In this document: positions 44,269-46,404 of the stretch, one piece after another
Numbering within the stretch: position 1 is the first letter of the stretch
Layout: each line of letters begins with the position of its first letter
From: Candidatus Aenigmatarchaeota archaeon
Lineage (GTDB): Archaea; Aenigmatarchaeota; Aenigmatarchaeia; CG10238-14; SCSR01
Direction: 5' to 3'
DNA: 48,506 nt
Assembly: GCA_016187405.1 (NCBI GenBank)
Contig: JACPJS010000010.1
Location: forward strand, 1 to 48,506
Translations under genes and position numbers: made by a program
The notes under the pieces: model-generated
Databases searched by the model: none
What the model saw: only the letters and a program-made list of their open reading frames with translations
Told to the model about the DNA's origin: nothing

Positions 44269-46043
44269 TCATGATTGTATCTTAGATTTGAAAAATTCTT
44301 TTGTATCTTTATCCATAAAATAAACATAAACACCTTTATGCGCACGAGACATCAGTACTCTATACACATTTTTCAAATGTTCTGTTAAATTTTTATTTCC
44401 ACGTTTAACAACACTATCTTGAGAATTTTCAGGTTTACTAATCCATTTCTTTTGTTTTTTATCATAAACTAAATCATTACTAAATATTACTCCAATATAA
44501 TCAAATTCGAATCCCTGTGCAGTATAAACTGTTCCAACTTGATCCATTCCACTTTCATTTGTAGCCCATGTCCAAGCCTCTTTTTTATTTTCCCAAGGCA
44601 TTTCAAAATCACCAATCTTAACATCATTCACTAAACTACCGTCAGGTCTCGGTTCACTCCAAGGCCAGCAAAAACCGGCGACTATTCTAGCTGAATTTCC
44701 CTTTTCTTTATTTTTTTGTTCAATAGCCTTCTTTAGTTCATGTGGAGAATCAAATATTTTGAATTCCATTCCAGTAGCTTTTGTTAAAGTTTGAATATCT
44801 GATTCTCTTATATCCAAAATATTTTCCAACCATTGTAAATATGTATCAGAACCAGAACATCTAAATTGTGTCTTCAATTCAAACTCGAAGATGTTTGATT
44901 CAGAAACTTCTAATTTTTTAGCTGCATTTTTAATCAATTCGACATTCCATATTTCGTTAGGTCTTACAATTTGATGTTCATCGTCATTACTAGTCTTCCT
45001 TATTCTATGAGCCTCGTCACAAATTAAAACATTAATTTCATTTTCTTTTAATTTTGTAAAGTTGAAAAAGAATTTGTAGAATTTCTCTGCTCTCTTACCA
45101 ACCAATTTCCTTAATGTTTTTGTAAATGCAGAAGAACCGGTAGCATGGAAAACAGTTTTACCTTTTCTCATTAATTCTCCCATTACTTCCAATGCTATGA
45201 CAGACTTTCCTGTACCTAGACCACCTTTAACAATAATAACAGATTTTTCATGTTGTTTCGATTGTCTGTTAGCTCTATACATTATAGCATTATAAGCTGC
45301 AATTTGATCGTCTATTAAATTGAAAACTTGTTGTTTGTTTATCATATCTCCAACGTGATCCAATAATTTTTTGGATGGCCTTATAGGACTGTTAACGAAT
45401 CTATTGAAAACTTGAAATCCAGAATCTTTAGAAAGTTTGTCTTTTAGAAATTCACCAAGTTTCTTTACATCTTGTTTTGAAAATAATGGATATTTTTTTA
45501 TTGCATTTTGAAACTTTTGAGCATACAAAACTGAATTTTCTGTTCTGGTATAATTATGACAGTAAACACAACCCACCACAATTCTATTTTAGGCGTATCT
45601 TGAAAAACTTTAATAAAGTCATTCATGTCTATAACATAAGCTTCAACTTGAAAACATGGATGTTCAGATTGACTAATATGATTTCCATAGTCAATTTCTA
45701 AATTTCCTTCTATTTCGGTGTCTTTCACACTGTTGTTAGACCATTGTTTTAATTCTATTATGACTATAGTGTCTTTGTTATCAATTGATTTTCCAAATAA
45801 TACAATATCAATTCTTCTTTCAGAGTACGGTAATTTGTATTCTATAACTATTTTATTGTTGATTAATTCTGGAGTGTCTAAAGAATCTTTCAGAACTCTA
45901 AGCGACGATTCACATGAACGATATTCGGACTCATTTACTTTACGTTGAATTTTTTCTAAATAGTTTTTCGCTACGATATCAGCAATTTCATTGTTTAGAA
46001 CGTCCCTTTTGAATTCACCAACAGTTCCTTCATATAATCGCAT
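44269..46043 (-). pseudogene. DUF2075-type nuclease-helicase (Schlafen-helicase-like), split by a -1 frameshift
   Basis: ORF 45498..46043 encodes the N-terminal nuclease-like domain (RIDIVLFG...IVIIELKQW). ORF 44269..45579 encodes the P-loop helicase part (GGLGTGKS, LICDEAHRI). The two overlap by 82 nt. The frames join at CCT AAA A|AT (nt 45585-45593). Confidence 0.8.
45585..45593 (-). other. Frameshift site in an A4 run
   Basis: Frame 1 reads CCT AAA ATA GAA. The downstream frame is open only from AAT AGA ATT GTG, after a TAA. One extra A would fuse both parts into a protein of about 590 aa. Confidence 0.7.
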
Positions 46044-46044
46044 T

Positions 46045-46404
46045 TTACAGCTCCGTATACTTATTGTTTGATCCTTTGGATTTTTCTACTGGATATCTAG
46101 ATTCATTCTTCTTTAATTTGTTTTTTAATTCAGTACTCAAGTCAATATCGTATTTTTGAGCTAAACGTAAAACAAAATATAAAACATCAGCAAGTTCTTC
46201 AGAAATTTCATTCTTTTTATCGGTTTTGAACATTTCTTCAACTTCTTTCTCTGATTTGAATCTGAAGTGTTCTAAAAGTTCAGAAGATTCCGTTATAATT
46301 CCAATAGCCAAATCTTTTGCATTATGATACTGATCCCAGTCACGATCCCCACAGAAATTTTTTACAGCATCCTTTAGTTCTTTAATAGTAGTTTCAGAGT
46401 CCAT
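46045..46404 (-). CDS. MazG-like all-alpha NTP pyrophosphohydrolase (DCTPP1/RS21-C6-like)
   Basis: Contains DRDWDQYHNAKDLAIGIITESSELLEHFRF....EELADVLYFVLRLA. Its stop lies 1 nt before the DUF2075 start. Confidence 0.85.
   Translation of the reverse strand: MDSETTIKELKDAVKNFCGDRDWDQYHNAKDLAIGIITESSELLEHFRFKSEKEVEEMFKTDKKNEISEELADVLYFVLRLAQKYDIDLSTELKNKLKKNESRYPVEKSKGSNNKYTEL

What the first reader, a model, noticed from the sequence alone, without database searches (positions are those of the whole stretch)
44269..46404. MazG-like NTP pyrophosphohydrolase coupled to a DUF2075 nuclease-helicase: candidate two-gene defence unit
The MazG-like gene ends 1 nt before the DUF2075 gene on the same strand. 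By eye this 2.1-kb unit is clearly more A+T-rich and Lys/TTA-rich than the native genes around it, suggesting lateral origin. DUF2075 is the helicase module shared with eukaryotic Schlafen proteins, here preceded by a PD-(D/E)XK-like domain. MazG-type enzymes can deplete or sanitise (d)NTP pools, a theme in anti-viral systems. A Cas4-like nuclease and a second MazG-like gene flank the unit. The defence role is inference only.
Basis: partly seen in the sequence, partly recalled or inferred. Interest (0 to 1): 0.6.

Follow-up and report, generated by a model that had tools for sequence, protein, structure and literature searches.

The report
MazG plus nuclease-helicase candidate defence pair
A foreign two-gene cassette (a dCTP-pyrophosphatase-like enzyme plus a DNA-cutting helicase) sits inside this archaeon's rRNA operon; the pair is conserved across bacteria and archaea and is already listed as an unproven anti-virus candidate, and the assembled copy is damaged although intact copies exist in the same groundwater samples.

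Summary
A 119-aa MazG-like gene (46045-46404, minus) stops 1 nt before a PD-(D/E)XK + DUF2075/Schlafen-type helicase gene. Both are compositional outliers (GC 0.30 against 0.38).

The linkage recurs. The MazG gene lies directly upstream in 45 of 80 loci from many bacterial and archaeal phyla, and in 11 of 11 loci from this phylum. The unit is absent from the nine same-genus genomes searched, so it is a laterally moving cassette.

It is not new. Millman et al. 2022 (Table S2) cloned the same architecture as candidate 'Pyrophosphatase' (SG192) and saw no defence. SG193 failed to clone. This scan has noted the pair in at least 217 genomes. Defence remains inference. The closest validated relatives are Nhi and Nhi-like.

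New here: the deposited helicase gene carries five lesions.
- a 2-nt insertion
- an 84-nt in-frame deletion
- W44C
- Walker-A P275L
- G393W

Contigs from four groundwater runs carry the intact versions; only P275L recurs, in one and a half of them. The published frameshift is therefore a minority allele or an assembly artefact.

MazG is DCTPP1-like with an intact catalytic tetrad. Recurrent McrA-type HNH neighbours suggest a link to modified cytosine. The Cas4-like gene and the second MazG are independent neighbours.

The parts
46045..46404 (-). MazG-like all-alpha NTP pyrophosphatase, DCTPP1-like, 119 aa, apparently intact
   Evidence: PF12643, 1.3e-15. Full-length match to mouse and human DCTPP1 (2a3q, 6sqw), E 6e-19. 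E39, E42, E70 and D73 are conserved in at least 99% of 70 cassette homologues. No sequence differences in four metagenome runs.
45582..46043 (-). N-terminal PD-(D/E)XK-like (NERD-like) domain of the nuclease-helicase, reading frame 1
   Evidence: Aligns to residues 1-155 of 620-aa homologues. E68, D79 and E97-x-K99 are invariant. AF2 model pLDDT 87. Pfam NERD and PDDEXK_9 hits are sub-threshold.
44269..45579 (-). DUF2075 / Schlafen-group-3 SF1 helicase part of the same gene, reading frame 2
   Evidence: PF09848, 1e-76. 77% identical to 620-aa homologues over residues 155-620.
45575..45578 (.). Two extra bases in a TGGTGG run that split the gene into two frames in the deposited assembly
   Evidence: Contigs of all four runs lack 2 nt at 45577. 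Removing 2 nt gives one 590-aa ORF with junction PKIEL-x-GCVYCHNY, which matches the family.
44979..44986 (.). Site of an 84-nt (28-aa) in-frame deletion between Walker B (DEAH) and the FFIDExQ strand
   Evidence: Alignment gap at columns 355-382. The run X4 contig (1521 nt, also the source of P0008) carries 84 extra letters here, which encode the 28 aa. Contigs of X1-X3 break here with loose ends.
45218..45218 (.). Walker A Pro-to-Leu substitution (GGPGTGKS to GGLGTGKS)
   Evidence: A>G on the plus strand in X2, X4 and half of X3. X1 matches the window. P275 is invariant in A2.
44949..44949 (.). G393W substitution at an invariant glycine
   Evidence: A>C in X1, X2 and X4. P0008 has G. G393 is invariant.
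45912..45912 (.). W44C substitution at an invariant tryptophan of the nuclease domain
   Evidence: A>C in X1, X2 and X4. W44 is invariant in A2 and nearly invariant in A5.
43544..44206 (+). Cas4-like PD-(D/E)XK nuclease, convergent neighbour, not part of the conserved pair
   Evidence: PF12705, 3.6e-12. The TIGR00372 cas4 hit (25.8 bits) is below its 65-bit cut-off. Present in 32 of 200 phylum genomes, sometimes multi-copy, and beside the pair in only 2 of them. GC is native-like.
43478..43495 (+). Left arm of an 18-nt inverted repeat that brackets the three-gene insert
   Evidence: 17 of 18 complementary to 46519-46536. Only these two sites in the window; 0.03 expected by chance. Absent from related loci.
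46519..46536 (-). Right arm of the 18-nt inverted repeat, about 115 nt upstream of the MazG-like start
46572..46925 (+). Second MazG (PF03819 type), divergent neighbour, probably an older resident of this spacer and not part of the cassette
   Evidence: PF03819, 2.3e-10. Homologous DNA lies 333 nt from the 23S 5' flank in same-family genome G140, and near it in G091, without the cassette. No homologue in the 80 cassette loci apart from weak cross-hits. GC 0.381.

Best explanation
The finding is one instance of a widely distributed, horizontally moving two-gene cassette.

What is shown.
- Gene 1 is a DCTPP1-like all-alpha (MazG-type) nucleoside-triphosphate pyrophosphatase with an intact metal-binding tetrad.
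- Gene 2 is translationally coupled to it. It is a single-chain nuclease-helicase: an N-terminal PD-(D/E)XK/NERD-like domain plus a Schlafen-type (DUF2075) SF1 helicase. This is the domain architecture of the validated anti-phage proteins Nhi and Nhi-like.
- The cassette is the same architecture as the 'Pyrophosphatase' candidate that Millman et al. 2022 cloned and could not validate.
- Here it was inserted, together with or next to a Cas4-like gene, into the spacer between tRNA-Ala/MazG2 and the 23S rRNA gene of a small-genome archaeon.
- In the deposited contig the nuclease-helicase is inactivated by five lesions. Intact alleles are present in four metagenome runs from the same groundwater study.

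Inferred mechanism.
- The nuclease-helicase loads on foreign DNA (viral or plasmid replication intermediates) and degrades it.
- The pyrophosphatase hydrolyses dCTP-type nucleotides, most plausibly 5-modified dCTPs.
- That would either deny a virus its modified building blocks or stop nucleotides released from degraded modified DNA from being re-incorporated into host DNA.
For: Identity of the parts: MazG/DCTPP1, catalytic E39/E42/E70/D73 conserved; 620-aa family, D..ExK, Walker A/B.

Conserved pair.
- MazG directly upstream (gap -4 to +50 nt) in 45 of 80 species-representative loci from Woesearchaeota, Micrarchaeota, Methanosarcinales, Thermoplasmata, Omnitrophota, CPR phyla, Bacillota, Bacteroidota, Pseudomonadota and others.
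- 11 of 11 in the phylum sample. One of two IMG/VR loci. A Priestia plasmid.
- MazG is the only neighbour family that recurs widely among 931 ORFs.
- Reverse test: 12 of 15 close MazG homologues in the phylum sample lie next to the helicase gene.
- Identities of the two proteins co-vary, Spearman 0.48.

Lateral origin.
- Family found in 13 of 200 phylum genomes and 0 of 9 same-genus genomes.
- GC, GC3 and TTA usage are outliers.
- In same-genus G023 the 23S flank and tRNA-Ala are 478 nt apart, against 4458 nt here.
- 41 plasmid records carry the family.

Defence flavour.
- The architecture equals Nhi and Nhi-like.
- Weak but consistent PADLOC hits to PDC-S41, Nhi and AbiO.
- McrA/TagI/VcaM4I-type HNH neighbours in 10 loci.
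- MrcB_N plus a type I R-M island on the Priestia plasmid.
- MazG is listed among predicted, unvalidated defence domains.

Lesions and intact alleles.
Against: - No functional evidence. Millman et al. recorded 'x' under 'observed defense' for SG192, and SG193 failed to clone.
- PADLOC has no model for the MazG partner, and its hits to the helicase are distant: best 1.5e-24 to candidate PDC-S41; Nhi only 1e-11 to 1e-15 over part of the model.
- Many immediate neighbours are housekeeping genes such as permeases, TFIIB and DnaJ. Defence-island enrichment was therefore not quantified against a control.
- 23 of 80 helicase loci lack a detectable MazG, so the helicase can stand alone.
- A more distant paralogue of this MazG sits between ribosomal protein genes L3 and L4 in related archaea, a housekeeping context.
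- The substrate (modified dCTP) is inferred only from similarity to DCTPP1 and from neighbours.
- The fold of the N-terminal domain could not be matched to a solved nuclease.
Confidence: 0.5

Rival explanations
1. Housekeeping or repair module rather than immunity. The MazG enzyme cleans non-canonical dNTPs from the pool and the nuclease-helicase processes damaged or stalled DNA. The pair is an accessory genome-maintenance kit.
For: DCTPP1 is a house-cleaning enzyme and is the closest solved relative. A paralogue lies in the ribosomal L3-L4 operon of related archaea. SG192 gave no defence. Many neighbours are housekeeping genes.
Against: The distribution is very patchy: 13 of 200 phylum genomes and 0 of 9 in the same genus. 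The composition is foreign. The family is carried on plasmids. Type IV restriction-type nucleases and R-M genes recur as neighbours. The architecture matches validated anti-phage proteins.
Confidence: 0.15
2. Selfish addiction (toxin-antitoxin-like) cassette. The nuclease-helicase is toxic to the host and the small upstream MazG gene neutralises it. The pair spreads and persists by post-segregational killing.
For: The layout is a small gene upstream, translationally coupled to a large nuclease gene. SG193 could not be cloned. The window allele and one run carry loss-of-function changes confined to the nuclease-helicase while MazG is untouched. The cassette is mobile, patchy and plasmid-borne.
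Against: The MazG catalytic tetrad is conserved in at least 99% of 70 homologues, which points to an enzyme and not a binding antitoxin. 23 of 80 helicase genes occur without MazG. MazG also pairs with HNH and Cas4-like nucleases, or stands alone.
Confidence: 0.12
3. Local status only. In this organism the unit is a dead remnant: a true pseudogene fixed in the lineage that gave the MAG, with no present function.
For: The deposited sequence has five lesions, all at conserved features: a 2-nt insertion, an 84-nt deletion, W44C, P275L and G393W. P275L is also seen in run X1 and half of X3, and X1 has a further 1-nt deletion at 45493, so damaged alleles do circulate.
Against: At four of the five sites no contig from any of four runs of the same study supports the window's version, and X2 and X4 show only the intact state at every lesion site their contigs cover. 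P0008 is otherwise identical to the window and carries the intact versions of three lesions. The MAG consensus may be chimeric or erroneous. The flanking 500 nt and MazG show zero differences, which is not what an old pseudogene lineage would show.
Confidence: 0.3

Closest known systems
Candidate system 'Pyrophosphatase' of Millman et al. 2022 (Table S2: SG192 Bacillus firmus LK28; SG193 B. thuringiensis Lr3/2)
   Same: The same two genes: a pyrophosphatase of about 100 aa and a DUF2075 protein of 619-643 aa. They are adjacent, in the window's order in SG192 and listed in the reverse order in SG193. The printed SG192 sequences show the same landmarks as this family (IVELKQW, CAYLHNY, GGPGTGKSV, DEAHR, FFIDExQ; FRDERGW..H, EANELLE, EEMADVL).
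   Different: Those are bacterial (Bacillus), this one is archaeal. Similarity was judged by reading the supplement, not by an alignment run here. Their construct showed no defence ('x') and the second failed to clone, so it is a listed but unvalidated candidate.
Nhi (S. epidermidis SERP2475; Bari et al.) and Nhi-like (B. cereus FSL H8-0482, SG141; Millman et al. 2022), validated single-gene anti-phage nuclease-helicases
   Same: N-terminal PD-(D/E)XK-type nuclease followed by a DUF2075 helicase in one polypeptide. The PADLOC Nhi model hits the helicase core, 7e-6 for the window and down to 3.5e-15 for homologues.
   Different: Only distant sequence similarity over part of the model. Nhi and Nhi-like act alone, whereas this family usually has an obligatory-looking MazG partner.
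DCTPP1 / RS21-C6 (mammalian dCTP pyrophosphatase 1)
   Same: Full-length similarity (E 6e-19). The EXXE...EXXD metal-binding tetrad and the R-W-H, RYP and KY motifs are conserved.
   Different: DCTPP1 is a eukaryotic house-cleaning enzyme with no nuclease partner. The substrate of the prokaryotic cassette enzyme is untested.
PADLOC candidate PDC-S41 and lactococcal AbiO
   Same: Best PADLOC hits: PDC-S41 1.5e-24 at both ends of a 657-position model, and AbiO 1e-10 to 1e-15.
   Different: The scores are far below what a family member would give. These are relatives within the DUF2075 nuclease-helicase superfamily, not the same family.
Eukaryotic Schlafen group 3 proteins (SLFN5/11/13)
   Same: The helicase domain belongs to Pfam PF09848, named after them. 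A profile of this family weakly touches SLFN5 and SLFN11 around Walker A/B (E 0.075-0.12). The N-domain model aligns with SLFN11 residues 404-509 at Z 5.0.
   Different: The matches are weak and tied with unrelated folds. The Schlafen N-terminal RNase domain is absent.

Membership tests
MazG / all-alpha NTP pyrophosphatase, DCTPP1-like (PF12643) | Pfam model score above the gathering threshold | tested here: met
   57.8 bits against a 27-bit cut-off, E 1.3e-15.
MazG / all-alpha NTP pyrophosphatase, DCTPP1-like (PF12643) | EXXE ... EXXD metal-binding tetrad | tested here: met
   E39, E42, E70 and D73 are present in the window protein and in at least 99% of 70 cassette homologues. They align to the EVGE and EELSD motifs of DCTPP1.
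MazG / all-alpha NTP pyrophosphatase, DCTPP1-like (PF12643) | (d)NTP pyrophosphohydrolase activity and substrate preference | not testable with these tools
   Needs an enzyme assay.
Nhi / Nhi-like nuclease-helicase defence proteins | C-terminal DUF2075 (PF09848) helicase with Walker A and B | tested here: met
   PF09848, 1e-76. GGPGTGKS and DEAH are invariant in the family. The window copy has GGLGTGKS.
Nhi / Nhi-like nuclease-helicase defence proteins | N-terminal PD-(D/E)XK nuclease domain | tested here: inconclusive
   E68, D79 and E97-x-K99 are invariant and lie on three consecutive strands of a confident model. The NERD and PDDEXK_9 hits are only sub-threshold. No solved nuclease was matched above Z 5.
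Nhi / Nhi-like nuclease-helicase defence proteins | Sequence membership (PADLOC Nhi model) | tested here: not met
   E 7e-6 for the window and 2e-11 to 3.5e-15 for intact homologues, covering only about 130-240 of 470 model positions. This is a distant relative.
Nhi / Nhi-like nuclease-helicase defence proteins | Protection against phage | not testable with these tools
   The only published test of this sub-architecture (SG192) was negative.
Millman 2022 candidate 'Pyrophosphatase' (SG192/SG193) | Adjacent small pyrophosphatase gene plus a DUF2075 gene of about 620-640 aa | tested here: met
   Gene order and sizes here match those in Table S2.
Millman 2022 candidate 'Pyrophosphatase' (SG192/SG193) | Sequence homology to the SG192 proteins | tested here: inconclusive
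   Shared motifs were read by eye from the supplement. No alignment was run, because the supplement sequences are not stored objects.
Cas4 (CRISPR-associated) | cas4 equivalog model score and cas/CRISPR neighbourhood | tested here: not met
   TIGR00372 scores 25.8 bits against a 65-bit cut-off. Only the general PDDEXK_1 model is met. No cas genes or CRISPR in the island. Hence 'Cas4-like', not Cas4.

The most novel reading that the evidence does not exclude
The DCTPP1-like partner hydrolyses 5-modified dCTPs. The pair would then be a two-enzyme immunity against viruses with modified cytosine DNA: one arm removes the modified precursor, or prevents its recycling into host DNA, and the other arm is a nuclease-helicase that destroys the viral DNA. 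The system would be costly enough that loss-of-function alleles, such as the five-lesion allele assembled here, segregate in natural DPANN populations. That would make it an undescribed mechanism joining nucleotide-pool editing to nucleolytic defence, and it would be common in DPANN archaea and CPR bacteria.
Probability: 0.3. Interest if true: 0.6.

Novelty: new member of a known kind. Interest (0 to 1): 0.33.

Why it matters
The pair is one of the commonest unvalidated candidate immune modules in small-genome archaea and bacteria. This scan alone has flagged it in more than 200 genomes. Its partner enzyme is the prokaryotic counterpart of human DCTPP1, and its helicase is the counterpart of the antiviral Schlafens. 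Showing what it does would link nucleotide-pool sanitation to nucleolytic immunity.

For this window the practical value is narrower.
- The apparent pseudogene in the public assembly does not represent the population.
- An intact archaeal allele is recoverable from public reads.
- The damaged alleles hint at a fitness cost of the nuclease-helicase.

Tried and rejected
Genomic context therefore came from the search for related loci, the genome search and plasmid records.
- The first-stage idea of a -1 frameshift or recoding at the A4 run 45585-45593 is rejected. All four runs differ from the window by 2 nt at 45577 in a TGGTGG run, and removing 2 nt there restores the family junction. Programmed frameshifting is not needed.
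- Foldseek of the N-domain model against the PDB found nothing at E <= 0.001. VIA-align wide gave a best Z of 5.1, with PCNA-like halves, the SLFN11/12 linker and SEN15 all tied. Profiles of the N-domain and of the whole protein found no solved relative.
- The 18-nt inverted repeat was sought in 103 fetched loci and found only in the window's own genome. It cannot be called a conserved terminal repeat or operator.
- Carriage by viruses is rare: 4 of 50,697 phage records, three of them unannotated faecal contigs, and 2 IMG/VR loci with the strict patterns used.
- Literature searches: no paper holds DUF2075 together with MazG. The Nhi+MazG and Schlafen+MazG searches returned nothing relevant. 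The PF12643 search returned only a paper on phage 7-deazaguanine DNA modification, which was not opened.
- The bacterial promoter and terminator scan was uninformative: 19 promoter-like sites against 18 expected. It is also not appropriate for an archaeon.
- Defence-island enrichment could not be quantified against a control. The family-tally tool returns only the 25 commonest families.
- The N-terminal roughly 200 aa of the recurrent HNH_2 neighbours have no Pfam match. Only their HNH part could be tied to McrA/TagI-type enzymes.
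Full report
**What is in the window**

The window comes from an archaeon.
- Rfam finds an archaeal 23S rRNA at 40034-43190 (minus) and a tRNA-Ala at 47881-47953 (minus).
- The assembly holds 440 kb in 16 contigs and is 73% complete.
- Earlier notes call it a groundwater DPANN archaeon (Aenigmatarchaeota). I did not verify the name.

Between the tRNA and the 23S gene lie five ORFs.

| Coordinates | Strand | Content |
|---|---|---|
| 43544-44206 | + | Cas4-like nuclease |
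| 44269-45579 and 45498-46043 | - | one large gene in two frames |
| 46045-46404 | - | MazG-like gene |
| 46572-46925 | + | second MazG |
| 47065-47787 | + | unassigned ORF |

- The MazG-like ORF ends TAA at 46047-46045. One base follows, then the ATG at 46043.
- Pfam assigns PF12643 (MazG-like, 1.3e-15) to the small gene and PF09848 (Schlafen group 3 helicase / DUF2075, 1e-76) to the large one.
- The N-terminal 155 residues give only sub-threshold NERD and PDDEXK_9 hits.
- In 45 homologues E68, D79 and E97-x-K99 are invariant and E40 is nearly invariant. In a confident model (pLDDT 87) they sit on a helix and three successive strands. That is the PD-(D/E)XK layout.
- Fold searches did not confirm this. 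The best Z was 5.1 and was tied with unrelated folds.
- The pair is a compositional outlier.
  - GC is 0.30-0.31 against 0.384 +/- 0.023 in the background.
  - GC3 is 0.20-0.25 against 0.367.
  - TTA makes up 46-73% of Leu codons against 12%.
- Lysine content is not unusual.
- The Cas4-like gene and the second MazG have native-like composition.

**The linkage recurs**

The large protein belongs to a family of about 620 aa.
- More than 6,400 database relatives were scored.
- At least 544 loci were found in species-representative genomes.

In the 80 best loci, from many bacterial and archaeal phyla, a homologue of the window's MazG-like protein (phmmer E 1e-55 to 4e-15) was located as follows.

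| Position of the MazG homologue | Loci (of 80) |
|---|---|
| directly upstream, same strand, gap -4 to +50 nt | 45 |
| directly downstream | 3 |
| within 6 kb | 9 |
| not detected | 23 |

Further points:
- The loci without MazG are mostly the most distant members.
- Among 931 neighbour ORFs, MazG is the only widely recurrent family (49 loci). The next are an HNH_2 endonuclease (10 loci), the Cas4-like gene (5) and RadC (5).
- In a sample of 200 genomes of the window's phylum, the helicase family occurs in 13. It was not found in any of the nine same-genus genomes.
- All 11 loci fetched from that sample have MazG directly upstream.
- In reverse, 12 of the 15 close MazG homologues in that sample sit next to the helicase gene. 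The other three stand alone or precede an HNH_2 gene.
- The identities of the two proteins co-vary, with Spearman 0.48.

**Lateral origin and the insertion site**

- In same-genus genome G023 the 23S 5' flank and tRNA-Ala are 478 nt apart. Here they are 4458 nt apart.
- In same-family genome G140 the 23S flank lies 333 nt from a homologue of the second MazG.
- So the second MazG is an older resident of this spacer. The inserted block is Cas4-like + nuclease-helicase + MazG-like, about 2.9 kb.
- An 18-nt inverted repeat (43478-43495 and 46519-36, 17 of 18) brackets exactly this block.
- It occurs nowhere else in the window or in related loci.
- The Cas4-like gene is independently patchy, in 32 of 200 genomes, and is sometimes multi-copy. 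It lies beside the pair in only two of those genomes.
- The helicase family occurs on 41 plasmid records and rarely in phage or viral contigs.

**State of the local copy**

Against 620-aa homologues, the deposited helicase gene has five lesions.
- a frame change near residue 155
- a 28-aa in-frame deletion between DEAH and FFIDExQ
- L for P in Walker A
- C for the invariant W44
- W for the invariant G393

Laying Logan contigs of four groundwater runs (one study) on 44200-46500 gave the following.
- All four lack 2 nt at 45577.
- X1, X2 and X4 read C instead of A at 44949 and 45912. This restores G393 and W44.
- X2, X4 and half of X3 read G at 45218. This restores P275.
- The X4 contig of 1521 nt carries 84 extra letters at about 44980.

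Its protein (P0008) is identical to the window's except that it has the 28 residues, P275 and G393. Removing 2 nt at 45577 yields one 590-aa ORF with the family junction L-x-GCVYCHNY.

No differences were seen in the MazG gene or in the flanks.

The published frameshift is therefore not a -1 slip in the A4 run, and it does not represent these four samples. Either the MAG consensus is faulty or chimeric, or a multiply damaged allele dominates its source sample.

P275L in X1 and a further 1-nt deletion at 45493 in X1 (depth 4.5) show that damaged alleles do circulate. All three substitutions hit invariant columns. This fits loss-of-function variants better than random sequencing error, but the numbers are small.

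**Function**

- The MazG-like protein matches DCTPP1 (RS21-C6) over its full length (E 6e-19).
- It keeps the EXXE...EXXD tetrad, which is conserved in at least 99% of 70 cassette homologues. It is therefore very probably an active (d)NTP pyrophosphatase.
- From established knowledge, DCTPP1 prefers dCTP and 5-modified dCTPs.
- The recurrent HNH_2 neighbours match the HNH domains of EcoKMcrA, ScoMcrA, TagI and the 6yex endonuclease. The first three are known modification-dependent enzymes.
- A Priestia plasmid has MrcB_N - pyrophosphohydrolase - DUF2075 inside a restriction-modification island.
- The same MazG type also pairs with a Cas4-like nuclease or an HNH nuclease without the helicase.

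This points, by inference only, to a nuclease-associated enzyme that acts on cytosine-type, possibly modified, nucleotides.

The helicase-nuclease shares its architecture with Nhi and Nhi-like, which protect against phage. PADLOC places it only as a distant relative of PDC-S41, AbiO and Nhi, and has no model for the MazG partner.

**Prior knowledge**

- No paper in the searched library mentions DUF2075 together with MazG.
Table S2 lists constructs SG192 (B. firmus LK28: 98-aa pyrophosphatase + 643-aa DUF2075) and SG193 under the name 'Pyrophosphatase'.
- The 'observed defense' column reads 'x' for SG192 and 'Cloning failed' for SG193. SG141 'Nhi-like' is marked 'v'.
- The printed SG192 sequences carry this family's motifs.
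- DefensePredictor (2026) lists MazG among predicted but unvalidated defence domains.
- This scan holds 250 notes on the pair, in at least 217 genomes.

**Verdict**

- The finding is real, and the pairing is strongly supported.
- It is a further, archaeal, member of an already listed but unvalidated candidate system.
- The defence role stays an inference, at about 50%.
- The new local results are the insertion into the rRNA spacer and the demonstration that the apparent pseudogene has intact alleles in the source habitat.

Noticed in passing
window 43190-47881: The rRNA operon is interrupted. tRNA-Ala and the 23S gene are 4.46 kb apart here but only 478 nt apart in same-genus genome G023.
   Followed up: partly
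window 46572-46925; G140:C3:27259-28125 (L102): The second MazG (PF03819 type) lies 333 nt from the 23S 5' flank in a related genus that lacks the cassette, and near it in G091. A MazG gene inside the rRNA spacer seems to be an older trait of this archaeal family.
   Followed up: partly
L108 3294-5417; L109 3251-5389: In related archaea (G082, G014) a DCTPP1-like MazG, 47-49% identical to the cassette one, sits between ribosomal protein genes L3 and L4 with overlapping stops. This looks like a housekeeping paralogue.
   Followed up: partly
L107 4448-5517; L105 3723-5055; L020 11848-13133: The same MazG type also pairs directly with a Cas4-like nuclease (L107) or with an HNH_2 endonuclease (L105, L020) without the DUF2075 gene. 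It may be a general partner of nucleases.
   Followed up: partly
window 46434-46510: The stretch upstream of the MazG-like gene matches short DNA segments (46-77 nt, 76-85% identical) on unrelated contigs of same-genus genomes G020 and G045 and of same-family genome G140. It also resembles the sequence at the 23S 5' end (direct repeat D1). It may be a shared promoter or processing element, or a small repeat.
   Followed up: no
window 47065-47787: A 240-aa ORF with no Pfam, NCBIfam or PADLOC match and no homologue in the first 97 fetched loci, the ones it was compared with. GC3 is 0.195 although overall GC is native-like.
   Followed up: no
P0086, P0098, L003 6001-8388: Some family members are 750-800 aa and carry a C-terminal LexA/S24 peptidase domain (PF00717 precomputed for P0086; P0098 is named 'peptidase S24'). 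The window's protein lacks this tail.
   Followed up: no
window 45493 (run X1): One X1 contig (depth 4.5) lacks one A in the A7 run at 45493. It may be a further frameshift allele or a low-depth error.
   Followed up: no
L013 678-3632; L062 4313-7905: In some loci another gene is inserted between MazG and the helicase gene: RadC-JAB in L013 and an unassigned 389-aa ORF in L062.
   Followed up: partly
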